In this document: piece by piece, positions 1,334-16,814 of the stretch
Position numbering within the stretch: the first letter of the stretch is position 1
How the letters are laid out: every line of letters begins with the position of its first letter
Assembly: GCA_964565945.1 (NCBI GenBank)
Contig: CAZMGY010000021.1
Span: 194,054 to 226,053 of the forward strand
Length of the DNA: 32,000 nucleotides
Direction: 5' to 3'
Source: an uncultured bacterium
Lineage (GTDB): Bacteria > GCA-001730085
The notes under the pieces: model-generated
Told to the model about the DNA's origin: nothing
What the model saw: the letters and a program-made list of their open reading frames with translations, nothing else
Databases searched by the model: none
Position numbers and translations under genes: made by a program

Positions 1334-2233
1334 ATGGAACCACTATGTTTTTCAAGAGATCATATCTCCAGTTTTGATGGCTTGATGACTGCTAATCAAA
1401 AAGTACTTCAAATTATCGATAAAGCTAAACAAGTAGCGGTATCAGATTTGCCAGTTCTGATAGTTGGAGAAAAAGGTACTGGTAAAATGAGTTTTGCTAC
1501 ATCCATCCATTCCCATAGCAGTTATAAGGAAGGTGCATTTCTTGTTCTGGAATCTAAAGATTTGGATGAAAACCTTTTGCAAGAGTCTATCAGTGATTGT
1601 GGTCAGGGTACTTGTGTGATTAAGGATGTTTCTTTGCTTAATTTGGCGAGTCAGAATGAATTGTTGATGTTATTATATCAGTCCATGCAAGACAGGGCGG
1701 TACGTTTTGTGGTTACCTCTGTGGTGCCCTTAGGTCACTTAGTCAAAACAGGACAATTTTTGAAAAATTTGTTTATTTTGCTTAGCCAAGTAACCTTGGA
1801 GTTGCCTTCTTTGCATAAACGTCGTGATGATATTGCGTTGTTGATTCAATATTTCATTGGTGAATACAACGCCGAATTCAATCGACAAGTTGAGTGTGTG
1901 TCTAATGTGGCGTTGAGTTATTTGATTGGGTATGCCTGGCCGGGAAATGTTGAAGAATTAAGGAGTGTTGTGAAAAAGGCGGTGGCTTTATCGGAACGGA
2001 ATATTTTATGGTTGGAAGATATTTCCTTAAAAATTACCTTAACCAACGAGGCCATGCTTAAAGGTGATGCGTCATCTCATTTGTCTCTTAAGTACCTGGA
2101 GAAAGAGCATATCGAAAAAGTATTACAAATTTTTCGTTGGAATAAATCCAAGGCAGCTAAGGCGCTTAAAATATCGAGACCACGTCTCGATCGTAAAATT
2201 CAAGAGTACCAGCTCAAAAAAGATTTGTCTTAA
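1334..2233 (+). CDS. Degenerate bacterial enhancer-binding-protein-like regulator: an NtrC-type AAA+ core plus a Fis-type HTH, with no sensor domain, no GAFTGA loop and no Walker B
   Basis: Walker A is VLIVGEKGTGK. bEBP signature blocks are present: LPSLHKRRDDIALLIQYF and YAWPGNVEELRSVV. The C-terminal HTH reads NKSKAAKALKISRPRLDRKIQEY. Where ESELFGHEKGAFTGA...GGTLFLDEI is expected, the protein has only LLQESISDCGQGTCVIKDV. Confidence 0.75.
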   Translation: MEPLCFSRDHISSFDGLMTANQKVLQIIDKAKQVAVSDLPVLIVGEKGTGKMSFATSIHSHSSYKEGAFLVLESKDLDENLLQESISDCGQGTCVIKDVSLLNLASQNELLMLLYQSMQDRAVRFVVTSVVPLGHLVKTGQFLKNLFILLSQVTLELPSLHKRRDDIALLIQYFIGEYNAEFNRQVECVSNVALSYLIGYAWPGNVEELRSVVKKAVALSERNILWLEDISLKITLTNEAMLKGDASSHLSLKYLEKEHIEKVLQIFRWNKSKAAKALKISRPRLDRKIQEYQLKKDLS

Positions 2234-3360: not shown

Positions 3361-6300
3361 TTAAGACTCCATATAAATATCGATACGGTTAGTTTTTGTC
3401 GTCAATGCTTTGTTAAGAAGGGGTTGACTGATACGTAATCCACCCATACGATAGGGATTATTTTCTCTTTGAGTTTCGATATTTTGTTTATTAACAAGCA
3501 CGCGTTGCAAACCACAGGCGTTCGCTTGAATATGAAAGTAGAAATCAACATCGTGCGATCCAATTCGACGGCTTAATTTAACATCGTTGAGTTCTACTGG
3601 TAATACTGGATCAAGTACCAGGTCGTCAAAAGAAGGACGAATACCAAAAAAGTGTGAAATTACTTGATTATTAAAGATTCCAGGACCGCTTGAGTAAATG
3701 CGCCAGCCACCTTTAACTTGGGTTGCACCTGTTTTGAGTTTATGAAAGCCTTTTTTAGCCAAATAGCGATCTTTAAAGTTTCCATCTGAACTACTAAAGT
3801 AAGAGTTGCTTTGCCTTAAGATGGCATTAGGAACACTTTTGTTGATGGTGATAGGAATGATTTTGAGAATAGCTTTGTAGGCCTTATCGGACGCTCCAAT
3901 TTTACACATGGCTTCGATATAGCGGATGTGTGCATGCACATACTGAATACCAATTTCGCGACCCCAATTGGCTGCTTCATCGGCACGACGGAAATACAAG
4001 CGCGGCCCACCTTTGTAAGTCACCGGTTCATTCATAAGGTGGACACCATCAGGGAAATCAAGGTGATCTTCGATGATTTTGAGGTGATCTTTCATTTGAG
4101 CTGGCTCAAAAAGCTCGGCAATCATACTGCGTGTCATAGGAAGGAGGCGATATTTGAGCCCCAACTTTTTATCGGATGGATGAAGCATATAGTCGATTGA
4201 TGAGTTTTCTCTAAAGTAGATAAATCCACTCACCACACCATCTTTGATAAGGTATTGGTTAAAGTCTTTCTTGATGTTGCTTCGTAGTTTGTTCAAACGA
4301 TCGGCAAAGGCCTTCTCGCTGGTTTTGGCGACCACTTGCTCGAGCTGTCCGAATGATTGATAGGTTAGAGCAACACTCCAAGTGCTGACCATATTCGAGC
4401 ACATACTTTCGTCGGCTGGTTGGAGCGTATCATCCCAATCGCCTTCTCCATAACAAGAGAGGTGTGTATTGGGGATAAATTTGGCCACAATGGCCTCAAC
4501 GGTGCGTTTGGCATGATCTAAGATGCTAACGGGCTCTCTGGTCAATTCAAACGTGTTGTGGTCCATAAAGGGGACTTTTTCTTTAAGAAAGCTAAAGTCG
4601 TTACTAGCTTCAATGTAGCTGGCAAGAGCCCTCAAAGGCCAAATGATAATGTCGCCATGACTTTCGGCATGTTGAATTTTGACATAGCGATCAAACATGA
4701 ACCACTGAGGCCAGTCGGCTGTTGCAACATACTGTTGTTGAAAAACCATTTTAAGAATTTCTTTAACTGGCTTGGTGTGTCCCATTGATAGCAAAAGCTC
4801 GAGAGGGCCTTGGCACACATCTCGCAATCCCCAAGCTCCACCACTAAATTGTTCGAGTCCATGAGGTGTTGAGTAGTGAATCATCCCATTATGAAGATAC
4901 CAAAAAACAATATCATTGATCTTAGATACATTTTCGTTATCAGCTAACTCAATAGAAAAGTTTTGCCCTAAGGTTTGTGTCCAAAAAGACATGTTGTCTA
5001 TATGATCTTGATCGAAATACGGTTGTGTTTTGGCCGAAGCTTGGGAACGTTTTTTTGCTTTTGCGGGATCAAATAGGTCGCCAGTTATGCTAAGGCTAAA
5101 GTTTTGTGTGGCTTTGGTTTTAAATACAACATAAGGCCAGCTTTGAGATTGACCGTCCAGATTAATGAATGCATCGTCGCCAATTGATTCGATTTGATCG
5201 GGTGTGGCCGATGTTACATAGAAGCTTGCGTCTGGATAAGTGTTTTTGAGCAAGCAGTCCGAACTGCATCTTGCTTGAACGGTAAAGGTTTCTGGATCAA
5301 TGTCGACGTCAATGGTATTATCCCACTCATTGTTGCCCACGGTTAAGTTATTGGAAACTAAAAACGTATGATTTTTGTTGGATTGAACCTCCAAATGACA
5401 GATTGGTTCCTTGGGGGAAACCCATGCTTTGATGGTGATTACATCGTTGGCAAGTTTATAAATCCATCGTGTAAAGTCTGGAGCGACTTCGTAAGCAGAG
5501 GGCAGGTTTAGCAGCTGCCATTGGCCGTTGCGCTCGATAAAAATACGTTGACCACTTGATTTGAAAATATTGAGTGGAGAACGTGTGATTGATAGAAATT
5601 TATTGAAGGACGTGTTTCCTATGGTTACGTGGGAGTGAAATATGCCATACATATAATTGGTGCTGCTAAGTACTTGATCATTGCCAGGGTTAAGATCTTG
5701 ACCACTGCGGATGATATGTCCATGAGGACGTTCGCATAAAAGTTCTTTGCTCTTAAGCGAAACATAGTGATGCTGATCATAAAAGAAAGACAGGAGTCGG
5801 TTGTTGTTTTGTTCGCAGTGACGGTGTTCCCCTGGAAAAAAAGAGACTAAATCCTGATCGTTAAGATTTTCTCCGTTGATTAAGCTAGGGCTGTTAAATA
5901 AAGAAAAAGATAACGGAGCTTGTTTTTCGCCATCAATAGCCACAAGACGTTGCTGTGCTGCGAGGCACGCTTCTTGGATGGCTTGTGCGTCATTGTCACT
6001 GGTTGCTTCGGGATGATCAAATTCCAGGTGTGCAAAAAAGTTAAATGAGGAGGAGTCTTTGCTTTTGAGTGTCATAGCTTCGGTTTGAAGGCCGATAAAG
6101 GCAAACTCGTATTGTCTTTTTTCGCTGATAAGCTTCTCTTGGGTGAGTGCTTCGGGAACGCCAGTTTCTTTGTAAGATAAGCCATAAAAGTCAAATCCAT
6201 CGGTAACATAGCCCACGGTTTTTTGTAGGCATCCTTGAATGAGCCATGGATGACCTTGAGGAGGTGTTTTTTGATTTTGACGTGATGCAACAGTGTAGCC

Positions 6301-6840
6301 TTGAGCATTAGAAAAAATGTAATGATCAATGTATTGACAGCAGTAAGCTTCGTTAACTCGAACGGATCCCTCGGCGATAATGGCAATATCTTGACCATAA
6401 ATCATATCAATCTCTTGGTCGGCAGAAGCTGTATTGGTGAGGTTAACGTTCCAATTCCATGCATTGTGTGTTTCGTCTAGCACCAGTTGGCATTGGTAAG
6501 AAATACCTTCGAATTCACCCGTCCAACAGGCTTGATTATTGGTTGTTGATAGGGAGGTTTGAACGGTGGGACCAAGCAAGGGTGCAAAAGCATAACGGTT
6601 ATCTTGTTTGACACGTATGTAGATGTTATTAATGTTGCCATCAATGGGAGTACCGATCACCTGGTTAATCATAATGTCGGCTGCCGAAAGCTGAAAAGCT
6701 CCGCCGTGGTTGAAATATTTGAATGATAATTGTTGGTTATTTGTGACTTCAATAATGTCAAGTTGACTTCGATCTTTAAACGTAACCATTACAGAACAAA
6801 CCCTTATTTTTCCTAAAATTACATCTTTGACAAGGATCAT
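3361..6840 (-). CDS. Large GH94-like glycoside phosphorylase of the (alpha/alpha)6-barrel, cellobiose/chitobiose/beta-glucan phosphorylase type; specificity unknown
   Basis: 1159-aa ORF. The N-terminal beta-sandwich pattern is AWNWNVNLTNTASADQEIDMIYGQD. Catalytic-domain motifs are GGAWGLRDVCQGPLE, HGDIIIWPL, CYGEGDWDDTLQPA (acid-motif analogue of GDWND, about 4421-4460), VSTWSVALTYQ and GGWRIYSSGPGIF. The true start may be the ATG at 6789 (MVTFKDR), which is preceded by AAGGG. The ATG at 6840 has no visible RBS. Confidence 0.6.
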   Translation of the reverse strand: MILVKDVILGKIRVCSVMVTFKDRSQLDIIEVTNNQQLSFKYFNHGGAFQLSAADIMINQVIGTPIDGNINNIYIRVKQDNRYAFAPLLGPTVQTSLSTTNNQACWTGEFEGISYQCQLVLDETHNAWNWNVNLTNTASADQEIDMIYGQDIAIIAEGSVRVNEAYCCQYIDHYIFSNAQGYTVASRQNQKTPPQGHPWLIQGCLQKTVGYVTDGFDFYGLSYKETGVPEALTQEKLISEKRQYEFAFIGLQTEAMTLKSKDSSSFNFFAHLEFDHPEATSDNDAQAIQEACLAAQQRLVAIDGEKQAPLSFSLFNSPSLINGENLNDQDLVSFFPGEHRHCEQNNNRLLSFFYDQHHYVSLKSKELLCERPHGHIIRSGQDLNPGNDQVLSSTNYMYGIFHSHVTIGNTSFNKFLSITRSPLNIFKSSGQRIFIERNGQWQLLNLPSAYEVAPDFTRWIYKLANDVITIKAWVSPKEPICHLEVQSNKNHTFLVSNNLTVGNNEWDNTIDVDIDPETFTVQARCSSDCLLKNTYPDASFYVTSATPDQIESIGDDAFINLDGQSQSWPYVVFKTKATQNFSLSITGDLFDPAKAKKRSQASAKTQPYFDQDHIDNMSFWTQTLGQNFSIELADNENVSKINDIVFWYLHNGMIHYSTPHGLEQFSGGAWGLRDVCQGPLELLLSMGHTKPVKEILKMVFQQQYVATADWPQWFMFDRYVKIQHAESHGDIIIWPLRALASYIEASNDFSFLKEKVPFMDHNTFELTREPVSILDHAKRTVEAIVAKFIPNTHLSCYGEGDWDDTLQPADESMCSNMVSTWSVALTYQSFGQLEQVVAKTSEKAFADRLNKLRSNIKKDFNQYLIKDGVVSGFIYFRENSSIDYMLHPSDKKLGLKYRLLPMTRSMIAELFEPAQMKDHLKIIEDHLDFPDGVHLMNEPVTYKGGPRLYFRRADEAANWGREIGIQYVHAHIRYIEAMCKIGASDKAYKAILKIIPITINKSVPNAILRQSNSYFSSSDGNFKDRYLAKKGFHKLKTGATQVKGGWRIYSSGPGIFNNQVISHFFGIRPSFDDLVLDPVLPVELNDVKLSRRIGSHDVDFYFHIQANACGLQRVLVNKQNIETQRENNPYRMGGLRISQPLLNKALTTKTNRIDIYMES

Positions 6841-9407: not shown

Positions 9408-9431
9408 CAAGCGCAGTGTGCTTGCTTTTTG
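9408..9431 (+). terminator. Candidate intrinsic terminator downstream of the murJ / CN-hydrolase unit
   Basis: CAAGCGC-AGT-GTGCTTG forms a 7-bp stem with one G-T pair and a 3-nt loop. It is followed by CTTTTTG. Confidence 0.35.
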
Positions 9432-9522: not shown

Positions 9523-9551
9523 TTTACAAAATAATATATACTTTATATAAT
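9523..9551 (+). promoter_or_regulatory. Near-consensus sigma70-type promoter P2 upstream of the MerR/secretin cluster
   Basis: TTTACA (9523-9528), a 17-nt spacer, then TATAAT (9546-9551). It lies 60 nt upstream of the MerR start. The spacer contains TATACTTTA (9537-9545), the same 9-mer as in the P1 palindrome. Confidence 0.45.
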
Positions 9552-9610: not shown

Positions 9611-9877
9611 TTGTTGGAAAAATTGTACCGTATTGGGGAAATTATGGAATACAGTGGTTTGTCTCGGCAAACTGTGCATTTATATACGCAGATGCGCCTG
9701 ATTCAAGAAAAGAAACGAACCCATTCTGGCTACCGGCTCTATGATGAATACGTCTTTAAACAAATAGAAATCATCAAAGCCTTACAGGCCTTAGGTTATA
9801 CCCTTTTAGAAATCAAAGATATCTGTGATCAGGGAAAAGTTAAGGAAGCATTCAAGAAACATGGGGTGAAGTTATGA
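9611..9877 (+). CDS. Small MerR-family HTH protein (88 aa) that lacks the long dimerisation helix and effector domain
   Basis: YRIGEIMEYSGLSRQTVHLYTQMRLIQEKKRTHSGYRLYDEYVFKQIEIIKALQALGYTLLEIKDI matches the MerR winged-HTH pattern. The RBS GAGGAG is at 9600-9605. The stop overlaps the next gene's start as ATGA (9874-9877). Confidence 0.8.
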   Translation: MLEKLYRIGEIMEYSGLSRQTVHLYTQMRLIQEKKRTHSGYRLYDEYVFKQIEIIKALQALGYTLLEIKDICDQGKVKEAFKKHGVKL

Positions 9878-11769
9878 GTAAACAAGATCTTCGTGGCCAA
9901 GTTTTGCTTAATGCAGGAGTGATCAATCAAGCGCAATTGGATAAAGCTCTAGAAATTCAAAAAGATAGTATGCAACGTATTGGGCATGTTTTGGTGGATG
10001 CTGGATTTATTTCGGAGGAGGAAATGTTATTGGCGATGGAGCGTCAGAGCGGCATCCCTTGGATCAAATTAAGACTATCGGATATTCAAGGCAGTGCCAT
10101 TGCTTTGATGTCTCAAGATATTGCTCAACGTTATGCGTGTTGTCCCGTTAAAGAAGAAGGAGAGATCTTGACGGTAGCTATTTCGGATCCTTTATCGTAC
10201 GAAGATATCGACGACATCCGCTTGGTTGTGAAAAAAGAGATCGAGCTTATTCTTGTTTCGGAGTCCAGTGTTTTAAGAGCGTTGAATCAATTTTACGAAA
10301 TTGATCCGAAAGAGGTTTTTGCGACGATGACGCCCAAACCTCATGAGAGTGAAATAGTTGAGGTCGAAGAGGTTCTTGAGGATGTATCGCGAGAAGATAA
10401 TATTGTACCAGTTGAGCTTGCGCCGTCTTCCGAAGTTGCTCCAGAGATATTTTCCGAAGAACCTGTGGAGGAAGAGATTTCCGAAGTGGTGGTTGAACCT
10501 GAGCTTGTGTCTATTCCCGAAAGTGAATCCGAAACGGATACGGCACAAAACCTAATAGACGAGAGTGAAGAACCTGTTGCCACTGTGCCCGAGGTTAAAG
10601 AAACGCTTGTCGAAGAGCCCCTTGTTTGGCTGGACAAAATGGAGGAGCAGGATTTTTGGGATCTTGTTCTTGATGAGGTTGATTTAGCGAGTGATATTTA
10701 TTTAGAAAATGACCCTGAAAATCTTAAAGTTCGCTATCGTGCGGATGGCGTGATTGTCAAAGAACAACTGATAAGCAAAAAGTCGCCCGTGTATCAAAAA
10801 TATTGGGAGGTTTTGTTGAAATGGAATGCTCAGTCGATGCAAGGGCCTATTCAGTCTTTGTTTGCCAATGTTGGTCGTTTGCAAAGGCGAGTCAAGTTGA
10901 CCTTTCTTTCGGATCGTTATGGACAGGATGTGCATTTGAAATGTTTATTTTACGAAGAACCTGTGACGAGTTTTGATCACTTGGGACTGAATGAGTTTTG
11001 CCATCAGCAATTGGAAGCATTCTTGATGCGAAAAAAAGGTGTTCTCCTTTTGTTGGGCGATGCCGATTCGGGTTTGAGTACGACGCTTAGGGTGTTGGGA
11101 CGATCTTTGTCGCAGCAAAAACGAAAGGTTCTTAGTTTTGAGCGTTTTATCGAATATGATGTTCCGGATATTTACCAATTTGAATCAGAGTCGTTTGAAC
11201 TAGGGTATATCTATCAAGACATGAGTAAAATTTTCGATATTAATCCCGATGTTTTTATCTTTGCTAATTTGCCTCAGCCAGCCTGGGCACATTTTTTGCT
11301 TGAGGCTTCTTTTTCTGGGAAATTAGTTGTTTTAGGAATGAATGCAAAAAACCTTAATAGTGTTTTTGTCAAAATTGAAGAATTAGGCGTGCACAAAAAC
11401 ATTTTTATTAACGAGATTGATTGCGTGCTTCGCCAAAGTTTATTTCGTCTTAATTGTCCTGGATGTGGGGATATTGATGAAAAATCTTCCGAGCATGATA
11501 TGAAGTATTTACTAGGGGAAGGTCTTTTCTATAAAGGGACTGGCTGTGAGTTATGTTATGCAACGGGTTATCAAGGGCGTCGAGCTATTTTTGATGTCTT
11601 GGAGGTTGATGAAGCTGTCAAAGAGTTGATGAAAAATGATATCACCGAAAAAGATATTAGTAAGATGCGTGCGGAGCAAGGTGGCGTTAGCTTGGCACAA
11701 GAGGCTGTCAGAATGATACAGGAACGGTACACGTCAATAGAGGAAGTTCAGAGAATTGGATTGGTTTAA
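9874..11769 (+). CDS. GspE/PilB/MshE-family protein with an MshEN-type N-domain, an acidic linker, and a catalytically degenerate ATPase core (pseudo-ATPase)
   Basis: The N-domain reads LRGQVLLNAGVINQAQLDKALEIQ-KDSMQ-RIGHVLVDAGFISEEEMLLAMERQ...ILTVAISDPL. The N2 region reads LASDIYLENDPENLKVRYRADGVIV. The P-loop position reads GDADSGLSTTL instead of GPTGSGKSTTL. The Asp box is SFERFIEY, the Walker B region is NPDVFIFANLPQ, and the His box is SGKLVVLGMNAK. The tetracysteine site is retained: CPGCG...GCELCYATGYQGRRAIFDVLEV. Confidence 0.85.
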   Translation: MSKQDLRGQVLLNAGVINQAQLDKALEIQKDSMQRIGHVLVDAGFISEEEMLLAMERQSGIPWIKLRLSDIQGSAIALMSQDIAQRYACCPVKEEGEILTVAISDPLSYEDIDDIRLVVKKEIELILVSESSVLRALNQFYEIDPKEVFATMTPKPHESEIVEVEEVLEDVSREDNIVPVELAPSSEVAPEIFSEEPVEEEISEVVVEPELVSIPESESETDTAQNLIDESEEPVATVPEVKETLVEEPLVWLDKMEEQDFWDLVLDEVDLASDIYLENDPENLKVRYRADGVIVKEQLISKKSPVYQKYWEVLLKWNAQSMQGPIQSLFANVGRLQRRVKLTFLSDRYGQDVHLKCLFYEEPVTSFDHLGLNEFCHQQLEAFLMRKKGVLLLLGDADSGLSTTLRVLGRSLSQQKRKVLSFERFIEYDVPDIYQFESESFELGYIYQDMSKIFDINPDVFIFANLPQPAWAHFLLEASFSGKLVVLGMNAKNLNSVFVKIEELGVHKNIFINEIDCVLRQSLFRLNCPGCGDIDEKSSEHDMKYLLGEGLFYKGTGCELCYATGYQGRRAIFDVLEVDEAVKELMKNDITEKDISKMRAEQGGVSLAQEAVRMIQERYTSIEEVQRIGLV

Positions 11770-13252
11770 AAAGCTAAAACAGAAGCTTAAGTCGTTTAAG
11801 AAGATAGGTGTTTTCACTTATGTGGGATTGGATGTTTTAGAAACATCGTTCCCTCAGTATGTGGTTCTTCATAAGACGAAGAAAACATTCTCTTTGTACG
11901 ATTGTGGGCGCATTTTTAATCGAGACGAAGTGTTGGGGAAGATTAAAGATCTTAATGTTAAAGTTGCTGTTTCAATCCCTCGAGATAAGGTGATTGTCCG
12001 TGTGATGGATATTTCTTATCAGGAATCGCAGAGTTTAGTTGAAGTGATTATGGAGCATGCTGAACAGGCGGTTCCCTTTGCTTTAGGGGAATTGTTCTGG
12101 AAATATTTTATTATTAAGAAATCCAAAAATAAAGCGGTTGTTATTTTTTGTGCAGTGACCAAAGAAAAATCGAATCAGTATGCCCAAGAGCTTAAAGGCA
12201 TGGGGCTTAAAAATGTAGTGATGACGGCATCCACCTTGTCTTATGTGAATACCTTCCTTTTTAATCATTGTGATGAGCTTTCGAACAAAAGTTACTTATT
12301 GGTTGATATTGGTATGCGGCAATTAGAGTTGTGCATTATCGAAGACGGTGTTCTTGTTTTGACGCGAAGCTTGAACCTCGGCATCGAATATATGTTGCGT
12401 ATGCTTATGGATAAGTTCGATATTGATTTTCCTACAGCTCAAAAAGTTGTGTTTGGAGCACCTAAAAACAAAGAAGAACCTGAGGAGGAAACGCTTTTGA
12501 ATGAAACGGTTGTACGTGAAGTTTTTCATGTTTGGACCGAGCGTGTCTTGCGCGAAATAGAGTTAGCGAAAAGGTTTTATGCTAGCAAATACGCCAAAAA
12601 AATCGACAGCTTAGTCATGAGCGGTTGCCCGATTCAATATGGTTACGATTTGGATTATATTGCGAATGTGATGAGCAAGCACTTTGACCTAGAAACGATG
12701 CTGTTAGACCCTCTGAAAAATGCTATTTTGGATCACCAATCCCTTGTGCATCAAGAGGATTTGCAACAGATCAATAGCTTGGCGATTCCTATGGGCTTGG
12801 CGCTTCAGTTGGTTAAGCAAGCTCCTCTGATGATCAATTTGAATGGGCAAGACAAAGATATTCGTGAAGAGAGTTCTTATTGGTCACATATGGCGGGACA
12901 AAAAAACAAAGTTTTGGCCATAGGTGTTGGCATTATTTTGTGTGTGTTGGCAGCCCAGAGTTATTTTATTAAAAAATCTCAGATCAAGAAAAATAAAGTT
13001 CTCAAATCGGAATATGTCTTGAGTCAAAAACAAGCAGTGACCTTTAAAAAGAAAATAAAAAAGCAAAAAGAAAAATTGGGACGTATTCATATTCCTCAAA
13101 GTCTTTTTTTAGATGTTCATACCTATTTTTCTCAAAAGAAGCAGGAGGAGTCCACACTAAGGTATGAGAAGTATTTGTTTCAATCTGGGAAGGGGATTGT
13201 TTATGCCAAGGATGCCGAGGGGCAAGAAGTGATTGAAGAGGTGACGTTATGA
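11756..13252 (+). CDS. GspL-like protein: a PilM-type actin-like cytoplasmic domain fused through one TM helix to a short PilN-like periplasmic coiled coil
   Basis: PilM-like blocks are FTYVGLDVLETS, KVAVSIPRDKVIVRVMDI and YLLVDIGMRQLELCIIEDGVLVLTRSLNLGIEYM. The TM helix is VLAIGVGIILCVLAAQSYFI. A Lys-rich coiled segment follows. The TTG start at 11756 overlaps the end of the upstream gene by 14 nt. Confidence 0.65.
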   Translation: MDWFKKLKQKLKSFKKIGVFTYVGLDVLETSFPQYVVLHKTKKTFSLYDCGRIFNRDEVLGKIKDLNVKVAVSIPRDKVIVRVMDISYQESQSLVEVIMEHAEQAVPFALGELFWKYFIIKKSKNKAVVIFCAVTKEKSNQYAQELKGMGLKNVVMTASTLSYVNTFLFNHCDELSNKSYLLVDIGMRQLELCIIEDGVLVLTRSLNLGIEYMLRMLMDKFDIDFPTAQKVVFGAPKNKEEPEEETLLNETVVREVFHVWTERVLREIELAKRFYASKYAKKIDSLVMSGCPIQYGYDLDYIANVMSKHFDLETMLLDPLKNAILDHQSLVHQEDLQQINSLAIPMGLALQLVKQAPLMINLNGQDKDIREESSYWSHMAGQKNKVLAIGVGIILCVLAAQSYFIKKSQIKKNKVLKSEYVLSQKQAVTFKKKIKKQKEKLGRIHIPQSLFLDVHTYFSQKKQEESTLRYEKYLFQSGKGIVYAKDAEGQEVIEEVTL

Positions 13253-13791
13253 AAAAGTTACAAGAACTTTGGCAACATTTCAACTTCTTTTCCTTCAATC
13301 ATCGAAGTGTCCTCATTGTGGGAGGGGGTTTTCTTATTTTGCTTATCGCTATTTTATGGATGAAAAGTCAAAGCCGAGCGTATTGCAATGAGAATGCCTT
13401 GTTAGAGCATCAAATTCATAAGTTTTGGGTCGAATATCAAAAGTTCCAGCAGAAAAATCACAAAGAGATAATGGCGATCAAAGAGATTGGCGTTCTCAAA
13501 AATGATAAGCAGATTGCCAAAGAGGGTAAGCGTCTTCGAGAAAAAATGATTAAAATAACTGAGCAAGCTATTTGGAGTGTGGATACTTTGCCTGCCAAAA
13601 AAGATAAGGGGATTATCAAACTAAGTTTTTTGCTCAAGTTTTCAAAGCCAACTTTGGCTAAAATTATGCAGGTGATTTATGTTTTAGAACAAGATGAAGA
13701 GTTGTTTTTTATTGACGAAATTGAGCTCACTAAGGGTGGAGCAGGTGTTAGTGCTAAACTCCTTTTAAAGAGGCTATACATTGCGAGGTAA
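13249..13791 (+). CDS. GspM/PilO-like bitopic inner-membrane assembly protein
   Basis: The architecture is a short cytoplasmic N-terminus, a TM helix (VLIVGGGFLILLIAILWM), a coiled coil, then a C-terminal alpha/beta unit (IIKLSFLLKFSKPTLAKIMQVIYVLEQDEELFFIDEIELTK). Its position is between the GspL-like and GspC/PilP-like genes. The ATGA overlaps the upstream stop. The call rests on architecture and context, not on strong motifs. Confidence 0.5.
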   Translation: MKKLQELWQHFNFFSFNHRSVLIVGGGFLILLIAILWMKSQSRAYCNENALLEHQIHKFWVEYQKFQQKNHKEIMAIKEIGVLKNDKQIAKEGKRLREKMIKITEQAIWSVDTLPAKKDKGIIKLSFLLKFSKPTLAKIMQVIYVLEQDEELFFIDEIELTKGGAGVSAKLLLKRLYIAR

Positions 13792-13794
13792 ATT

Positions 13795-14295
13795 GTGAAA
13801 TTTGTTGCTTTGAGAATGATTTTTGTTTTATTGGGACTTTTGGTGACAGGTCAACTCTATGCCGAGGCCAAAGCTTTTCAAAAAACGCCTTTGGACGAGT
13901 GGGATGTGTACAGGGGGGCGTTTCAGCTAGATATTTTTAGAGAGCCACGTATCGAGACCCAGTCTGTGAATAAGGGAGGAGAGATAGTGGTTTCGTTGGA
14001 TCAAAATCTTGGAATAGAGGCTGATGAGATGATGCAATCTCTTCAAGATATGGTGAGTTTGCCCCCCCCCGAAGAATGTATTGATATCGATTGGGCTTTG
14101 TACGATATCACAATCACGGGTGTCGGGTTTGTGAGTGGTCGTCCTAAAATCTTTTTTGAAAACAGGGCGACGGGAAAAAGTTATTATCTTGCCCAAGGGC
14201 AAGAAGAAGATGGAATTCGTGTTGAACAAATCAGGCGATTGGCTATTATTTTTAGAATTCAAGGGCAAAAGCTTAAGATTGATCGCCAATTTTAG
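13795..14295 (+). CDS. GspC/PilP-like periplasmic protein (signal peptide plus a small beta domain)
   Basis: The GTG start follows GAGG. The signal peptide is MKFVALRMIFVLLGLLVTGQLYA|EA. The C-terminal segment ITGVGFVSGRPKIFFENRATGKSYYLAQGQEEDGIRVEQIRRLAIIFRIQGQKLKI resembles the PilP / GspC-HR pattern. The gene lies immediately upstream of the secretin. Confidence 0.5.
   Translation: MKFVALRMIFVLLGLLVTGQLYAEAKAFQKTPLDEWDVYRGAFQLDIFREPRIETQSVNKGGEIVVSLDQNLGIEADEMMQSLQDMVSLPPPEECIDIDWALYDITITGVGFVSGRPKIFFENRATGKSYYLAQGQEEDGIRVEQIRRLAIIFRIQGQKLKIDRQF
14062..14070 (+). repeat. Homopolymer C9 inside the GspC/PilP-like gene
   Basis: Read directly: agttt g ccccccccc gaag. It encodes LPPPEE. Confidence 0.9.
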
Positions 14296-14327
14296 TATAA
14301 TAGTTTCGTGATGGAGGAAGTGTGTGC

Positions 14328-16814
14328 ATGAAATTAGTAATTCAGTTTTTTTTAATGACTTTGTTGGCTATAGGGCTGCAGGTTGATCTTGGGGCTCAGG
14401 AAATGGCACAAGGCCCGATGGTGTCTATGGATTTTCATGAAGTTGACGTGGATAGTGTTCTTCATTTTTTGGGAGAGGCTTCGGGTTTAACAATTGTTAA
14501 AGACCCTACATTAACGGGGACGATAAGTATTACCACTTTTGGGAAGACGTCGGTGGGACAAGCAATTAACATTTTGAATAGTGCTTTGAGTGTCAAAGGT
14601 TTTACGTTGGTCAAAACAGGGGAGGTTCTTAAAATAGTTCCCCTAGAAGGCGTTTCTAAAACCAATGTGAACGTATTTAAAGATTATAAGATGCCTGCGA
14701 ATGAACCTAAAGATGACACCGTTGTGACCAAAATGATTTCTTTGCAATATGCCAAAGCTAAAGATGTTGTTACGGCTTTGCAGCCGTTGGTGGGGCGATT
14801 TGGCTCGGCGATTGCTTACGAAAGAACAAATACGGTTATTATTACCGACGCTTCGGCCAATATTGCACGCTTAACCGACTTGCTTGAAGATTTGGATCGT
14901 CAAGTGACCTCTTTGGTGACACGTTCTTACAAGGTTCAGCATGCTGGGCTAAACAAGCTGAAGGACTTACTTAAACAAATTACTGAGCAGTATGAACACG
15001 AATTGGGGCACTTTGCAATCAATTCGGATGAAAGAACGCGAACCCTATTTGTGACCACCCTTCTGGATAATTTTGACATGGTTGAAAAGCTGATTTATCA
15101 GCTTGATCAAGGAATACCTCAGGTGCTTATCGAAATGGAAGTAGTTAGAATTCCTTACCGCAACATTGATGTTGATATACGACACCGTCTTTTTGAGTCA
15201 TCAAAATATGCACATGATAAAAAGGTGATGAACGAGGGTGATCAAATTTTTAATTGGAGATACAGTATTGATGCCGATGCCGATAAAATGTTTTCTTGGT
15301 ATGGGCTATCTGAAGATAAGGGTAAAGAAGAATTTACCTACAAGTTGAATGTGTTGTATGGACCCGAATATTTTGATGTGTATGCCTTACCGATGGTGAC
15401 TGTGGCTGAAGGGAGCCAAACCGAGGTATCTATAGGGCACGAAAATTATTTTTACCGCTTGGCTCCAATGACGCTCGACTTTAAAATTATTCCTCATTTG
15501 AATGAAGATGAAACAGTTACTTTAGAAATGTTCCAACATGTTCGAGGAGATTGGCTCAAAACGCAAGATGCCTATGCACGTTTGGTGGTTGCCAAGGATC
15601 AAACTGTTGTTTTAGGGGGGCTTAATGAGCTGCGTTTACCTCAAGACCGTCAGGTGGCCTCGGCGTATCGCGAAGATACCCACTATGTAAGCAATGAATT
15701 TTTGATTTTTTTAACTCCGCATATCATTTGGGATCCAGCTACGTTTAAAAAGAAAATTGAGAAACAGGCCAAGGAAGCGGCCCTTAAAGCCGAAAAACCC
15801 GATTTAAATCTTTTGTTTCCTGGTGGTTTTATGGAATTTGATTTGCCCAAAGTGTCTGCGATGACCAAACAGAAACATCCTACTCAAGATGATTTTGTAA
15901 GCCCAAATCCTGGGGTGGAGTTAAAGGTTGATGAGGGCTCACATGGGCCACCAACCCAAAGCAAATCCTATAAAATTTGGTGGAAGATGCAAGATTTTGT
16001 ACAATTGCCCGAGGAGCTTGTTGACATTAAAGAGGCAATGTCGGATCGCAACTTTGTTGACAGTGAGGTGAGAAGCCGTTTGCGCAAGGATGTTGTTCAG
16101 TTTATGGAGAATGTTCGTGCCGAAGAAACCTTGGGCATGGAGCCCGATGTGAGCTTGAAAACCAAAGTGACACCTGTTCCCGAAAAAGAGAATTATGTTC
16201 TTAAAGAAACACTCTATCGTCGAGGTATTTCTTTTTACAAAAAACAACAGTATAAAGGGGCGATTCGTGAATTTGCTCCGATTATGAGTATCGATCCAAA
16301 CTATAAGAATGTGCAAAGATATATGCAGTTATCACAACAGCGTTACAAAGAACAGTTATCGGATTTGGGAGAGCGCAATAATATCGAAAAGGCCATTAAA
16401 GACAAGGCCTTGAAAGAATTGACCCAAACATACACGACGATGGATCAAAAAATCAAACAGGTGTCTCAGGCAGAGTCGATGGGAGCTTACACCAAGAGTG
16501 ACAAGTTGTTTAATTATATTGGAGAGCCTAAGGATATTCCTTCCGATCGCATTGAAAAGTCATTGACCGATCACTTAGCGGGAGAAATCTTGGAAGTTAG
16601 TGCTGCTCAACCCCTTGTGGTGATTAATCTTGGTTCGATTCAGAATGTTCATCCAGGGATGGCTTTCAAAGTGTATCGGGATCAGGAGTTTATCGGTAAA
16701 GTTCGTGTGTCCGATGTTGGAGAGCATGTTTCTGGAGCCGAGGTGGTTTCGACCAAAACTCCGAAAACAACTTTTCGTTTTGGAGATAAGGTGGTACAGG
16801 CCCTTGTAGCATAG
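14328..16814 (+). CDS. Secretin (GspD/PilQ family) with N0/N1/N-type domains, a short divergent secretin domain and a C-terminal extension of about 360 aa
   Basis: The ATG at 14328 lies 10 nt after GGAGG. The signal peptide is MKLVIQFFLMTLLAIGLQVDLGAQE. N0 reads VSMDFHEVDVDSVLHFLGEASGLTIVKDPTLTGTISI...KGFTLVKTGEVLKIVP. N1 reads TKMISLQYAKAKDVVTALQPL...ERTNTVIITDASANIARLTDLLEDLD. The secretin core reads PQVLIEMEVVRI...LDFKIIPHLNEDETVTLEM...QTVVLGGL...EFLIFLTPHII. After about 15735 comes a non-secretin tail with a TPR-like unit (YRRGISFYKKQQYKGAIREFAPIMSIDPNY) and a terminal beta-barrel-like unit. Confidence 0.85.
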   Translation: MKLVIQFFLMTLLAIGLQVDLGAQEMAQGPMVSMDFHEVDVDSVLHFLGEASGLTIVKDPTLTGTISITTFGKTSVGQAINILNSALSVKGFTLVKTGEVLKIVPLEGVSKTNVNVFKDYKMPANEPKDDTVVTKMISLQYAKAKDVVTALQPLVGRFGSAIAYERTNTVIITDASANIARLTDLLEDLDRQVTSLVTRSYKVQHAGLNKLKDLLKQITEQYEHELGHFAINSDERTRTLFVTTLLDNFDMVEKLIYQLDQGIPQVLIEMEVVRIPYRNIDVDIRHRLFESSKYAHDKKVMNEGDQIFNWRYSIDADADKMFSWYGLSEDKGKEEFTYKLNVLYGPEYFDVYALPMVTVAEGSQTEVSIGHENYFYRLAPMTLDFKIIPHLNEDETVTLEMFQHVRGDWLKTQDAYARLVVAKDQTVVLGGLNELRLPQDRQVASAYREDTHYVSNEFLIFLTPHIIWDPATFKKKIEKQAKEAALKAEKPDLNLLFPGGFMEFDLPKVSAMTKQKHPTQDDFVSPNPGVELKVDEGSHGPPTQSKSYKIWWKMQDFVQLPEELVDIKEAMSDRNFVDSEVRSRLRKDVVQFMENVRAEETLGMEPDVSLKTKVTPVPEKENYVLKETLYRRGISFYKKQQYKGAIREFAPIMSIDPNYKNVQRYMQLSQQRYKEQLSDLGERNNIEKAIKDKALKELTQTYTTMDQKIKQVSQAESMGAYTKSDKLFNYIGEPKDIPSDRIEKSLTDHLAGEILEVSAAQPLVVINLGSIQNVHPGMAFKVYRDQEFIGKVRVSDVGEHVSGAEVVSTKTPKTTFRFGDKVVQALVA

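What the first reader, a model, noticed from the sequence alone, without database searches (positions are those of the whole stretch)
9889..10047. N-terminus matches the 53-residue MshEN c-di-GMP-binding signature
The published MshEN motif is two copies of RLGxx(L/V/I)(L/V/I)xxG(L/V/I)(L/V/I)xxxxLxxxLxxQ separated by 5 residues. Residues 6-58 here read LRGQVLLNAGVINQAQLDKALEIQ - KDSMQ - RIGHVLVDAGFISEEEMLLAMERQ. The second copy matches with conservative substitutions (F for L/V/I, and M for L twice). In the first copy, every position from G3 onward matches, but the leading RL is inverted to LR. The spacer is exactly 5 residues. Because the ATPase core is dead, the protein may function mainly as a cyclic-dinucleotide receptor that controls the secretin complex.
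Basis: partly seen in the sequence, partly recalled or inferred. Interest (0 to 1): 0.65.

Follow-up and report, generated by a model that had tools for sequence, protein, structure and literature searches.

The report
Dead pilus motor keeping c-di-GMP sensor
This gene encodes a pilus/secretion-motor look-alike that has lost every catalytic ATPase motif but keeps an unusually well conserved copy of the known c-di-GMP-binding MshEN module, so it probably acts as a signal receptor attached to an outer-membrane secretin machine, although ligand binding is untested.

Summary
Window 9889-10047 encodes residues 6-58 of a 631-aa ORF (9874-11769, +), and they read exactly as quoted. The match is not chance. 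NCBIfam's 53-position c-di-GMP motif model scores 55.3 bits against a cut-off of 38. The AF2 model's best PDB match is V. cholerae MshE bound to c-di-GMP (TM 0.73-0.78).

Published PilF K167L data show that Leu at motif position 1 is tolerated. The only untested deviation is Arg7 at position 2, normally Leu.

The ATPase half keeps the PilB fold and the Zn-Cys4 site. It has lost the Walker A Lys, Asp box, Walker B Glu, His box and Arg fingers.

Five relatives in metagenomes share the invariant "DLRGQ" start, and all those whose ATPase half is available share the dead motor. Those with enough flanking sequence share a MerR, X, PilM-like, secretin-like operon. In this family the four-helix bundle is the most conserved region (about 60% identity, against 19-35% for the motor). 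Canonical PilBs show the opposite gradient.

A receptor role is therefore plausible. However, a known non-binder (PilF GSPII-A) also passes the motif model. No GGDEF, EAL or HD-GYP gene lies in about 52 kb around the gene, and the organism's taxonomy is unresolved. I rate this a new variant of a known kind, of moderate interest.

The parts
9523..9551 (+). Sigma-70-like promoter (TTTACA-17-TATAAT, 11 of 12) upstream of the MerR-like gene. It follows a terminator-like hairpin at 9408-9424, so the operon probably starts here.
   Evidence: This is a consensus scan only, not proof of function.
9611..9877 (+). 88-aa MerR-family HTH protein with no effector domain. Its stop overlaps the ATG of the next gene (ATGA). 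A MerR-like gene sits directly upstream in four of the five family loci with context (window, L087, L091 and the P0082 locus); in L090 a large cadherin/RTX-repeat protein sits upstream instead.
   Evidence: Pfam MerR_1 E 4.9e-12; sequence; contexts.
9874..11769 (+). 631-aa PilB/GspE/MshE-family pseudo-ATPase: MshEN domain, acidic disordered linker, then a catalytically dead T2SSE-type ATPase fold.
   Evidence: Pfam MshEN E 1.1e-16 and T2SSE E 1.9e-34. Scores fall far below the NCBIfam PilB and GspE equivalog cut-offs (176.7 against 675.65; 166.6 against 630.25). Full-length AF2 model. Fold matches PilF/PilB/GspE cores at TMt 0.70-0.79. The identical protein occurs on 17 contigs.
9889..9960 (+). 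MshEN motif I (aa 6-29), LRGQVLLNAGVINQAQLDKALEIQ. Leu6 is at position 1, Arg7 at position 2 (normally Leu), and Gly8, Gly15, Leu22, Leu26 and Gln29 are canonical.
   Evidence: L6, R7, G8, Q9, L22, L26 and Q29 are invariant in the five full-length family members and also in the P0216 fragment.
9961..9975 (+). Five-residue spacer, KDSMQ (aa 30-34).
9976..10047 (+). MshEN motif II (aa 35-58), RIGHVLVDAGFISEEEMLLAMERQ. Arg35, Ile36, Gly37, Gly44 and Gln58 are canonical or conservative. Met51 and Met55 replace the two Leu of the hydrophobic triangle that Arg7 would join.
   Evidence: family alignment.
10051..10302 (+). MshEN_C alpha/beta subdomain (aa 60-143), including Asp105, which aligns with MshE Asp108.
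   Evidence: Pfam PF05157 hit at aa 60-143. The phmmer alignment is offset by +3 relative to 5HTL. AF2 secondary structure.
10321..10668 (+). Acidic Glu/Val/Pro/Ser-rich linker (aa 150-265; 32% Asp+Glu), predicted disordered.
   Evidence: Composition; pLDDT below 50 for aa 153-256.
10684..11754 (+). T2SSE-type N2D plus CTD fold (aa 271-627) without catalytic residues.
   Evidence: Pfam T2SSE covers 23-370 of 370 profile positions; fold search.
11056..11079 (+). Degenerate Walker A, GDADSGLS, where canonical proteins have GPTGSGK[ST]. The Lys is replaced by Leu.
11134..11157 (+). Degenerate Asp box, SFERFIEY, where canonical proteins have T.EDP[IV]E[YF].
11245..11277 (+). Degenerate Walker B, PDVFIFANLPQ, where canonical proteins have DPD[IV]I[ML]VGEIRD. 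The catalytic Glu is lost.
11314..11352 (+). Degenerate His box, SGKLVVLGMNAKN, where canonical proteins have TGHLV.STLHTN. Both His residues are lost.
11455..11556 (+). Retained tetracysteine Zn site (CPGC ... CELC; C528, C531, C558, C561), invariant in the family.
11756..13252 (+). 498-aa PilM-like cytoplasmic domain fused to one TM helix (around aa 387-405) and a periplasmic tail, a GspL-like or PilM-PilN-like architecture. It overlaps the pseudo-ATPase gene by 14 nt.
   Evidence: Pfam PilM_2 E 3.8e-20. NCBIfam PilM and Amuc_1101 family, both below cut-off. TM helix. 30% identical to the L090 neighbour.
13249..13791 (+). 180-aa bitopic protein with an N-terminal TM helix, in the position of PilO or GspM. 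No family hit.
   Evidence: 22% identical to the L090 neighbour.
13795..14295 (+). 166-aa protein with a signal-peptide-like N-terminus, in the position of PilP. No significant family hit.
14322..16814 (+). 830-aa secretin-like outer-membrane protein. The N0 and Secretin_N domains are clear. The Secretin C-domain scores only 16 bits, below its 27.5 cut-off. A C-terminal extension of about 350 aa follows.
   Evidence: Pfam; NCBIfam GspD N-terminal part E 3.2e-43, below cut-off; 46% identical over its full length to the L090 neighbour.

Best explanation
ORF 9874-11769 encodes a PilB/GspE/MshE-family pseudo-enzyme.

Shown here:
- The C-terminal half keeps the secretion-ATPase fold and the zinc site. 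It has lost the Walker A lysine, Asp box, Walker B glutamate, His box and N2D arginine fingers, so it cannot be a pilus or secretion motor.
- The N-terminal 58 residues form a complete MshEN four-helix bundle with both 24-residue motifs and the 5-residue spacer.
- This bundle is the most conserved part of a small, uncurated family. Its members are encoded in MerR, X, PilM(N)-like, TM protein, signal-peptide protein, secretin-like operons. No platform protein appears in any locus, and only the P0082 locus has a pseudopilin gene.

Inferred:
- The bundle still binds a cyclic dinucleotide, most likely c-di-GMP. Leu6 would stack on one guanine, as in PilF K167L. Arg7 with Met51 and Met55 would replace the usual Leu triangle over the other guanine. 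The Gly8 and Gly37 backbone amides and Gln29 and Gln58 would make the polar contacts.
- The protein docks as a non-motor cytoplasmic cap onto the PilM-like protein. It converts dinucleotide occupancy into an assembly or gating state of the trans-envelope secretin complex.
For: 1. Signature and fold.
- NF053729.1 scores 55.3 bits against a cut-off of 38. As an isolated 63-mer the window scores 61.9 bits, inside the range of proven binders: PilF GSPII-B 63.3, GSPII-C 57.4, M. xanthus PilB 57.7.
- The AF2 model of aa 1-150 has pLDDT 88. Its best PDB hits are MshE bound to c-di-GMP (TM 0.73/0.78) and c-di-GMP-bound PilF GSPII-B.

2. Comparison with known non-binders. At every position where known non-binders deviate, the window keeps a binder-type residue or, at two positions, a conservative Met-for-Leu. 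The non-binder changes are XpsE G11V, I19R, L29R, R38G, G40L, L54H, L58C and Q61V, and PilF GSPII-A H33, S39, A41 and R62. The window has G8, V16, L26, R35, G37, M51, M55, Q58 and Q29.

3. Position 1. Leu here is experimentally favourable: PilF K167L has KD 2 nM, and the consensus was extended to (R/K/L)LG (PMC11731258).

4. Selection.
- 10 of 14 ligand-contact positions are invariant in the family, against 9 of 39 other positions in aa 6-58 (Fisher p = 0.002).
- MshEN_N is 60-63% identical within the family, against 19-23% for N2D and 30-35% for CTD. Canonical PilBs show 43%, 60% and 59%.

5. Dead motor. It is dead in all five full-length family members, apart from a surviving Walker A Lys in P0082. 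The fold is retained.

6. Operon. It is conserved in L087, L090, L091 and the P0082 locus. The P0082 locus also has a weak-PilZ gene just downstream.

7. Precedents. M. xanthus PilB signals independently of ATP hydrolysis (PMC5544727). MshEN domains are fused to non-ATPase outputs (PMC5013675). PilF N-terminal GSPII domains contact PilM (PMC12002112).
Against: - No binding data exist.
- Arg7 occupies the position whose Leu side chain packs on the second guanine. L10A in MshE raises KD 36-fold and impairs function (PMC5013675). No natural or engineered Arg at this position has been tested.
- Passing the motif model does not discriminate. The non-binder PilF GSPII-A scores 55.1 bits. Restoring its full consensus did not restore binding, because a stable N-capped extension of helix alpha-1 blocks the site.
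- The window protein is modelled with helix alpha-1 starting at residue 3. It has a possible S2-x-x-D5 capping box, and D5 is invariant in the family.
- Several conserved 'contact' residues are also core residues of the bundle, so part of their conservation may reflect fold alone.
- No GGDEF, EAL, HD-GYP or PilZ gene and no c-di-GMP riboswitch was found in about 52 kb around the gene. The only dinucleotide cyclase seen is CdaA, which makes c-di-AMP.
- Docking to PilM and control of the secretin rest on gene order only.
Confidence: 0.5

Rival explanations
1. Structural GSPII domain only. The N-terminal domain no longer binds any nucleotide, like XpsE-N or PilF GSPII-A. It is conserved because it is the docking surface for the PilM/GspL-like partner. 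The whole protein is a static, non-signalling scaffold left over from a former motor.
For: - Arg replaces the position-2 Leu of the guanine-packing triangle, and both partner Leu residues are Met. L10A costs 36-fold in MshE.
- A non-binder passes the same HMM, and a restored consensus was not sufficient in GSPII-A.
- AF2 models helix alpha-1 from residue 3, with a possible S2/D5 cap.
- No c-di-GMP enzymes are nearby.
- GSPII/N1E domains are known partner-binding modules: PilF with PilM, and a GspE-GspL complex appears among the fold hits.
Against: - The residues that serve only ligand contacts and are lost in known non-binders are invariant here: Gly at position 3 and Gln at position 24 of both motifs, and R/K at position 1 of motif II.
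- Ligand-contact positions are enriched among the invariant columns (p = 0.002).
- The four-helix bundle is more conserved than MshEN_C (60% against 41-45%). No partner-contact data bearing on either subdomain were retrieved here, so this point is only suggestive.
Confidence: 0.3
2. Retuned specificity. The clade-specific Arg7/Met51/Met55 half-site changes the preferred ligand to another cyclic dinucleotide, for example 3'3'-cGAMP or the c-di-AMP made by the CdaA encoded 8 kb downstream. c-di-GMP would not be the ligand.
For: - One of the two base-binding half-sites has been replaced as a set, and the replacement is conserved across the family. R7 is invariant, position 17 is M or V, and position 21 is M or L. 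The other half-site stays canonical.
- MshEN binds cGAMP weakly (KD 3.3e-4 M).
- CdaA is present in the window, and no GGDEF gene was seen.
Against: - Guanine selectivity in MshEN comes from the backbone amides of Gly at position 3 and the residue after it, which contact O6 and N7. Adenine would clash, and c-di-AMP binding to MshEN was undetectable (PMC5013675). Gly8 and Gly37 are retained.
- CdaA sits in a different, housekeeping-looking gene run (FtsH-FolP-CdaA-x-PdxJ-AcpS), so its proximity may be coincidental.
Confidence: 0.1
3. Still a working motor ATPase that uses non-canonical catalytic residues, with MshEN regulating it as in MshE and PilB.
For: The PilB-like fold and Zn site are retained. 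P0082 keeps a Walker A GxxxxGKT.
Against: - Walker A Lys, Asp box, Walker B Glu, both His-box histidines and the RRLPQDGR arginine-finger segment are all absent in the window protein. All but the Walker A Lys are also absent in P0082.
- N2D and CTD evolve fast (19-35% identity).
- No PilC/GspF platform gene lies in any of the five loci. No pilin gene lies in the loci of the four Walker A-less members (window, L087, L090, L091); only the P0082 locus has a pseudopilin gene.
Confidence: 0.03

Closest known systems
Vibrio cholerae MshE N-terminal domain (MshEN; PDB 5HTL), the prototype 53-residue c-di-GMP-binding module
   Same: - Position at the extreme N-terminus, with the motif starting at residue 6 here and residue 9 in MshE.
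- Two 24-residue motifs with a 5-residue spacer.
- Gly at positions 3 and 10 and Gln at position 24 in both motifs.
- Asp105 aligns with Asp108.
- Same four-helix bundle plus alpha/beta subdomain (TM 0.73-0.78).
   Different: - Motif I starts LRG rather than RLG.
- The Leu10/Leu54/Leu58 triangle becomes Arg7/Met51/Met55.
- The attached ATPase is dead here, whereas MshE is an active pilus extension motor whose activity depends on c-di-GMP.
Thermus thermophilus PilF GSPII-B (binder; K167L variant has KD 2 nM) and GSPII-A (non-binder)
   Same: - GSPII-B shows that K or L at position 1 supports, and even improves, binding. Its N-terminal sequence D-L-K-L-G-E resembles D-L-R-G-Q here.
- GSPII-A has a similar NF053729 score to the window protein.
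   Different: - GSPII-B keeps Leu at position 2.
- GSPII-A fails to bind because of H33, S39, A41 and R62 together with a stable N-cap. The window protein has none of those substitutions, although a weak S2/D5 capping box is possible.
- PilF is an active motor.
Xanthomonas XpsE (GspE) N-domain, a degenerate MshEN that lost c-di-GMP binding
   Same: A GSPII fold at the N-terminus of a T2SS-type protein (fold hit 2D28).
   Different: XpsE carries G11V, I19R, L29R, R38G, G40L, L54H, L58C and Q61V. At six of these eight positions the window protein keeps the binder-type residue, and at the other two (L54, L58) it has Met. XpsE has an active ATPase and a degenerate sensor, the opposite of the arrangement here.
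Myxococcus xanthus PilB acting as a signalling protein
   Same: A PilB with an MshEN motif whose regulatory output (EPS) does not need ATP hydrolysis. The nucleotide-free form is proposed as the signalling state (PMC5544727).
   Different: M. xanthus PilB is also a working motor. Here the motor function has been lost permanently across a whole family.
MshEN domains fused to non-ATPase outputs (for example the c-di-GMP-activated glycosyltransferase NfrB; also REC, HD-GYP and CheA fusions)
   Same: MshEN used purely as a sensor module. The window N-domain hits the NfrB MshEN region at E 2.3e-16 (PMC5013675).
   Different: Here the 'output' is a fossil ATPase fold rather than an enzyme of another class.
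Akkermansia muciniphila Amuc_1098-Amuc_1102 pili-like cluster
   Same: The same kind of gene run: a PilM-like protein, two small envelope proteins, then a secretin-like outer-membrane protein. The window's PilM-like protein hits the Amuc_1101 family model at E 5e-23, covering the region beyond the PilM core.
   Different: The score is far below the family cut-off (81.7 against 650). The small proteins and the secretin do not hit Amuc families. No PilB-like gene is described in the Akkermansia cluster.

Membership tests
MshEN / GSPII c-di-GMP-binding domain (Pfam PF05157; NCBIfam NF053729) | Two tandem 24-residue motifs separated by a 5-residue spacer (53 residues in all) | tested here: met
   aa 6-29, 30-34 and 35-58.
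MshEN / GSPII c-di-GMP-binding domain (Pfam PF05157; NCBIfam NF053729) | Score above the curated cut-off of the 53-position motif model and of the Pfam domain model | tested here: met
   NF053729.1 scores 55.3 bits against 38. PF05157 scores 61 bits against 23.1. The calibration shows that a non-binder also passes.
MshEN / GSPII c-di-GMP-binding domain (Pfam PF05157; NCBIfam NF053729) | Position 1 of each motif is R, K or L, the residue that stacks on guanine | tested here: met
   Leu6 and Arg35. The extended consensus (R/K/L)LG comes from PMC11731258.
MshEN / GSPII c-di-GMP-binding domain (Pfam PF05157; NCBIfam NF053729) | Position 2 of each motif is Leu (I or V tolerated), a member of the hydrophobic triangle over the other guanine | tested here: not met
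   Motif I has Arg7, which is invariant in the family. Motif II has Ile36. The HMM alignment starts at profile position 3.
MshEN / GSPII c-di-GMP-binding domain (Pfam PF05157; NCBIfam NF053729) | Gly at position 3 and Gln at position 24 in both motifs, which make the polar contacts | tested here: met
   G8, Q29, G37 and Q58, all invariant in the family.
MshEN / GSPII c-di-GMP-binding domain (Pfam PF05157; NCBIfam NF053729) | Leu at positions 17 and 21 of both motifs | tested here: inconclusive
   Motif I has L22 and L26. Motif II has M51 and M55, which are conservative changes, but L54A and L58A weaken MshE binding at least 10-fold.
MshEN / GSPII c-di-GMP-binding domain (Pfam PF05157; NCBIfam NF053729) | Four-helix bundle plus alpha/beta subdomain fold | tested here: met
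   AF2 pLDDT 88. Foldseek top hit is 5HTL at E 7e-10 and TM 0.73/0.78.
MshEN / GSPII c-di-GMP-binding domain (Pfam PF05157; NCBIfam NF053729) | [quoted passage not shown] | tested here: inconclusive
   AF2 models the helix from residue 3. An S2-x-x-D5 capping box is possible, but S2 is not conserved (Ile in P0065).
MshEN / GSPII c-di-GMP-binding domain (Pfam PF05157; NCBIfam NF053729) | [quoted passage not shown] | not testable with these tools
   Requires ITC, DRaCALA or DSF on purified protein.
PilB/GspE/MshE secretion-superfamily motor ATPases (Pfam PF00437; TIGR02538, TIGR02533) | N2D plus CTD fold with the T2SSE profile | tested here: met
   PF00437 E 1.9e-34 covering 23-370 of 370 positions. 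Foldseek matches PilF, PilB and EpsE cores at TMt 0.70-0.79.
PilB/GspE/MshE secretion-superfamily motor ATPases (Pfam PF00437; TIGR02538, TIGR02533) | Walker A GxxGxGK[ST] | tested here: not met
   GDADSGLS, with Lys replaced by Leu.
PilB/GspE/MshE secretion-superfamily motor ATPases (Pfam PF00437; TIGR02538, TIGR02533) | Asp box, Walker B with catalytic Glu, His box, and N2D arginine fingers | tested here: not met
   SFERFIEY, PDVFIFANLPQ and SGKLVVLGMNAKN. The RRLPQDGR segment is absent.
PilB/GspE/MshE secretion-superfamily motor ATPases (Pfam PF00437; TIGR02538, TIGR02533) | Tetracysteine Zn site of the CTD | tested here: met
   C528, C531, C558 and C561, invariant in the family.
PilB/GspE/MshE secretion-superfamily motor ATPases (Pfam PF00437; TIGR02538, TIGR02533) | Equivalog-level score for PilB or GspE | tested here: not met
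   176.7 against 675.65 (PilB) and 166.6 against 630.25 (GspE).
Type IVa pilus / type II secretion machinery (operon level) | PilM/GspL-type cytoplasmic partner and an outer-membrane secretin | tested here: met
   PilM_2 E 3.8e-20. Secretin N0 and Secretin_N domains are clear. The Secretin C-domain is below its cut-off (16 against 27.5 bits).
Type IVa pilus / type II secretion machinery (operon level) | Platform protein (PilC/GspF), (pseudo)pilins and prepilin peptidase | tested here: not met
   None in the operon or within about 52 kb. Only the distant P0082 locus has a T2SSG pseudopilin gene. These genes could lie elsewhere in the genome.
Akkermansia Amuc_1098-1102-type pili-like cluster | Family-level matches to the Amuc_1101, Amuc_1100, Amuc_1099 and Amuc_1098 models | tested here: not met
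   Only Amuc_1101 is hit, at 81.7 bits against a cut-off of 650. The other proteins have no hits.

The most novel reading that the evidence does not exclude
A lineage-specific family of PilB-derived pseudo-ATPases has turned a former pilus motor into a dedicated second-messenger receptor. Its MshEN pocket carries a remodelled half-site (Arg7/Met51/Met55 in place of the Leu triangle) that changes ligand preference, for example towards 3'3'-cGAMP or another mixed dinucleotide. Ligand occupancy gates a pilin-less PilM-secretin conduit directly, without any ATP-driven step.
Probability: 0.1. Interest if true: 0.8.

Novelty: new variant of a known kind. Interest (0 to 1): 0.45.

Why it matters
MshEN is an established c-di-GMP receptor module. 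How ligand binding at the N-terminus is passed on to the machine is still unclear, even for MshE and PilB (PMC11656802).

A natural family has discarded the motor chemistry but kept the sensor bundle under the strongest constraint. It remains embedded in a PilM-secretin operon. Such a family would separate the signalling role from the motor role. It also offers a simple system for asking what an MshEN domain does to the envelope complex.

The invariant Arg at motif position 2 is a sequence variant that no binding study has covered. Testing it would either widen the usable consensus for genome-wide receptor prediction or define a new class of non-binders or altered-specificity domains.

Nothing here is proven biochemically, and the domain family itself is well known, so the finding is of moderate interest only.

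Tried and rejected
- Word-indexed protein searches never returned the protein itself or its orthologues. Its 90% cluster is represented by an unrelated-looking 47-aa peptide. Orthologues came only from the exhaustive HMMER search and cluster look-ups.
- A GTDB genome scan with the protein found no relative.
- A scan with IspG gave only 42-50% full-length matches to Bacteroidota and Verrucomicrobiota MAGs (up to 66% over the best segment for two MAGs), so the organism's phylum stays unresolved.
- A metagenome scan with the family alignment failed.
- I looked for c-di-GMP enzymes, PilZ and riboswitches in the window plus 10-kb extensions on each side. None was found. This cannot answer the whole-genome question.
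- A literature search for PilB/GspE pseudo-ATPases with MshEN found nothing directly comparable. A search for the SRA accessions found no papers.
- Pseudogene or mis-called ORF: rejected. The ORF is intact and identical on 17 contigs, four full-length orthologues share the same architecture, and the Zn site is conserved.
- Using the curated motif HMM as proof of binding: rejected after calibration, because the non-binder PilF GSPII-A also passes.
- Reading 'LR' as a one-residue deletion (DLK-L-GE to DLR-GQ) instead of a swap: sequence alone cannot distinguish the two.
- Linking the MshEN domain to the nearby CdaA (c-di-AMP): judged unlikely, because MshEN's guanine selectivity comes from backbone amides.

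Full report
OBSERVATION. Window 9889-10047 (+) translates to LRGQVLLNAGVINQAQLDKALEIQ-KDSMQ-RIGHVLVDAGFISEEEMLLAMERQ. These are residues 6-58 of a 631-aa ORF at 9874-11769. The start codon is the most upstream one possible. It follows a GGGGTG Shine-Dalgarno-like sequence and overlaps the stop of an 88-aa MerR-like gene as ATGA. All relatives start with the same M-x-x-(Q/R)-D-L-R-G-Q.

Against the strict consensus of Wang et al. (PMC5013675), copy 1 fails only at positions 1 and 2 (LR for RL). Copy 2 has I for L at position 2 and M for L at positions 17 and 21. The spacer is 5 residues.

IS IT MORE THAN CHANCE? Yes.
- NCBIfam holds a 53-position model of exactly this motif (NF053729.1). It matches residues 8-58 at 55.3 bits, cut-off 38, E 4e-15.
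- phmmer of residues 1-63 alone finds V. cholerae MshE (5HTL) at E 4.8e-08. Residues 1-150 find it at 4.6e-14 and Geobacter PilB N-domains at 1e-21.
- Pfam MshEN (PF05157) covers the second subdomain, aa 60-143.
- An AlphaFold2 model of aa 1-150 has pLDDT 88. Its best PDB match is MshE bound to c-di-GMP (TM 0.73/0.78), followed by c-di-GMP-bound PilF GSPII-B structures.

HOW GOOD IS THE BINDING SITE? MshE numbering is window numbering plus 3.
- Published mutagenesis shows that Gly11 and Gly40 are essential. L10A costs 36-fold, L58A costs 10-fold, and earlier R9 changes cost less than 5-fold.
- In T. thermophilus PilF GSPII-B, position 1 is Lys in motif I and Leu in motif II. The K167L variant binds at 2 nM, and the authors extended the consensus to (R/K/L)LG (PMC11731258). 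Leu6 is therefore not a defect.
- The real deviation is Arg7. Every alignment puts it in the column that other MshEN domains fill with L/I/V. Its side chain would join Met51 and Met55 in place of the Leu10/Leu54/Leu58 triangle over the second guanine. One half-site is therefore remodelled, while the other (Leu22, Leu26, Ile36) is canonical.
- At the sites where known non-binders deviate, the window keeps a binder-type or conservative residue. Those sites are XpsE G11V, I19R, L29R, R38G, G40L, L54H, L58C and Q61V, and PilF GSPII-A H33, S39, A41 and R62.

CAUTION ON THE MOTIF MODEL. I scored known domains with NF053729:

| Domain | Binds c-di-GMP? | Bits |
|---|---|---|
| V. cholerae MshE | yes | 86.6 |
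| PilF GSPII-B | yes | 63.3 |
| Window protein (63-mer) | unknown | 61.9 |
| M. xanthus PilB | yes | 57.7 |
| PilF GSPII-C | yes | 57.4 |
| PilF GSPII-A | no | 55.1 |

An artificial RL version of the window sequence scores 67.1. Passing the model places the window among binders, but it cannot exclude a non-binder. GSPII-A remained non-binding even after its consensus was restored, because a stably N-capped extension of helix alpha-1 occludes the site (PMC12002112). The window model has helix alpha-1 from residue 3 and a possible S2/D5 capping box. Ser2 is not conserved, and only five residues precede the motif.

THE ATPASE HALF. Pfam T2SSE matches aa 271-627 at E 1.9e-34. A full-length AF2 model has a confident C-terminal half that matches PilF, PilB and EpsE cores at TMt 0.70-0.79. 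NCBIfam PilB and GspE equivalog scores are far below their cut-offs. The catalytic motifs, aligned with canonical PilBs, read as follows:

| Motif | Window protein | Canonical |
|---|---|---|
| Walker A | GDADSGLS | GPTGSGK[ST] |
| Asp box | SFERFIEY | T.EDP[IV]E[YF] |
| Walker B | PDVFIFANLPQ (no Glu) | DPD[IV]I[ML]VGEIRD |
| His box | SGKLVVLGMNAKN (no His) | TGHLV.STLHTN |
| N2D arginine fingers | absent | RRLPQDGR |

The tetracysteine Zn site is intact. A 32% acidic linker (aa 150-265) is predicted to be disordered.

A FAMILY, NOT A ONE-OFF. The exhaustive HMMER search of 1.84 billion representatives found only a handful of close relatives. They are P0064 (641 aa, 36% identity), P0065 (581 aa, 39%), P0104/P0214 (592 aa, 37%) and P0082 (546 aa, 28%), plus the fragment P0216.
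- All begin (Q/R)DLRGQ(I/V)(L/M)L, and motif II begins (R/K)IG.
- Among 215 retrieved PilB-like proteins, the LRG start occurs only in this clade.
- P0064, P0065 and P0214 also lack the Walker A Lys. All members lack the Walker B Glu and the His box. P0082 keeps only the Walker A Lys.
- Within the family, MshEN_N is 60-63% identical, MshEN_C 41-45%, N2D 19-23% and CTD 30-35%. Nine canonical PilBs give 43%, 50%, 60% and 59%. The conservation gradient is inverted.
- Ten of the 14 MshE ligand-contact positions are invariant, against 9 of 39 other positions in aa 6-58 (Fisher p = 0.002). Some of these residues are also bundle-core residues, so this is supportive rather than conclusive.

CONTEXT. 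A sigma-70-like promoter (9523-9551) follows a terminator-like hairpin. The operon then runs:
- MerR-like gene (9611-9877).
- Pseudo-ATPase (9874-11769).
- 498-aa PilM-like protein with one TM helix and a periplasmic tail (11756-13252).
- 180-aa bitopic protein (13249-13791).
- 166-aa signal-peptide protein (13795-14295).
- 830-aa secretin-like protein with clear N0 and Secretin_N domains, a sub-threshold Secretin domain and a long C-terminal extension (14322-16814).

The same order recurs around P0214 (L087, which also shares the upstream sigma-54 activator, SOGP and MurJ genes), P0064 (L090), P0065 (L091) and P0082. Between the window and L090, the secretin is 46% identical over its full length, the PilM-like protein 30% and the TM protein 22%.

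No PilC/GspF gene appears in any locus. No pilin or prepilin-peptidase gene appears in the window locus. The P0082 locus adds a T2SSG pseudopilin gene and a weak-PilZ gene downstream. The PilM-like protein also hits the Akkermansia Amuc_1101 family model, below cut-off. The gene order recalls the Amuc_1098-1102 pili-like cluster.

DOES THE ORGANISM USE c-di-GMP? I could not determine this. The window, with 10-kb extensions on both sides (about 52 kb), has no GGDEF, EAL, HD-GYP or PilZ gene and no c-di-GMP riboswitch. It does encode CdaA, the c-di-AMP synthase, at 19604-20398. No close relative exists in GTDB representative genomes. IspG is only 42-50% identical over its length to Bacteroidota and Verrucomicrobiota MAGs. 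The lineage is therefore uncharacterised.

MECHANISM.
Shown: the protein has a PilB-derived fold without catalytic residues. It carries a complete and strongly constrained MshEN bundle. It is co-transcribed, with overlapping genes, with a PilM-like and a secretin-like protein.
Inferred (overall confidence about 0.5): the bundle still binds c-di-GMP. Leu6 stacks on one guanine, Arg7/Met51/Met55 cover the other, and Gly8, Gly37, Gln29 and Gln58 make the polar contacts. The protein sits on the PilM-like cytoplasmic ring as a non-motor cap that couples messenger level to assembly or gating of the secretin complex.
Precedents: M. xanthus PilB signals without ATP hydrolysis (PMC5544727). MshEN domains are fused to non-ATPase outputs. 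PilF GSPII domains contact PilM.

RIVALS.
- Purely structural GSPII domain, about 0.3.
- Retuned ligand specificity, about 0.1. This is disfavoured because guanine selectivity in MshEN comes from backbone amides.
- Cryptically active ATPase, about 0.03.

NOVELTY AND VERDICT. The domain and its motif are well known, and finding them at the N-terminus of a PilB-like protein is ordinary. Three things are not described in the papers I could search:
- a conserved family in which the motor is dead;
- the sensor bundle as the most constrained region of that family;
- an invariant Arg replacing the position-2 Leu.

I classify this as a new variant of a known kind, with interest of about 0.45. The decisive experiments are binding assays on aa 1-62 and 1-150 with R7L and G8I controls, and a whole-genome search for diguanylate cyclases.

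Noticed in passing
window 19604-20871 (+): A CdaA-type diadenylate cyclase (PF02457 E 2.5e-42, plus the CdaA_N TM domain) is followed by an overlapping 158-aa ORF with no Pfam or NCBIfam hit, in the position where CdaR/YbbR usually sits. The organism therefore makes c-di-AMP. The pair lies in a run FtsH-FolP-CdaA-x-PdxJ-AcpS-NnrD directly downstream of the secretin gene.
   Followed up: partly
window 14322-16814 (+); L090 10638-13532: The secretin-like protein has clear N0 and Secretin_N domains, but its Secretin C-domain scores only 16 bits (cut-off 27.5). It carries a C-terminal extension of about 350 aa that is conserved (46% identity over the full length) in the L090 orthologue, where weak TPR hits are recorded. 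It is an atypical secretin.
   Followed up: partly
window 3361-6840 (-) and 1334-2233 (+); L087 137-5637: A 1159-aa SOGP/GH94-type beta-1,2-oligoglucan phosphorylase and a receiver-less sigma-54 activator (AAA+ plus HTH_8 only, 299 aa) lie upstream. Both are syntenic in the distant relative L087, even though the pseudo-ATPase is only 37% identical there.
   Followed up: no
window 29798-32000 (+), continuing in L092 11798-14311: A large ORF (more than 838 aa) downstream of IspG runs off the window and has no Pfam hit. An 827-aa and a 223-aa protein upstream of the window (L095) also have no Pfam hit. This points to a poorly characterised lineage.
   Followed up: partly
P0082 locus (JGI 3300072015, gene table only): In the most distant family member, the operon contains a T2SSG-type pseudopilin gene between the ATPase-like gene and the PilM gene. 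A 128-aa gene with a weak PilZ hit follows the secretin. This is the only hint of c-di-GMP signalling near any family member.
   Followed up: no
L090 3-6131 (+): In the P0064 locus the MerR-like gene is absent. A protein of more than 2042 aa with cadherin, Big_12 and RTX repeats lies directly upstream of the pseudo-ATPase gene. It could be a surface or secreted substrate.
   Followed up: no
protein clusters P0053/P0054/P0055: In the 90%-identity clustering, the window protein is represented by an unrelated-looking 47-aa peptide (VNAKHQKRKIKVYLK...). As a result, word-indexed homology searches never return the protein or its relatives. This is a database artefact worth knowing about.
   Followed up: partly
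window 28001-29674 (+): IspG (GcpE) is the long form, 557 aa with an insertion of about 180 aa. It is only 42-50% identical over its length to Bacteroidota and Verrucomicrobiota MAG proteins (up to 66% over the best segment for two MAGs), so the phylum of the source organism remains unresolved.
   Followed up: partly
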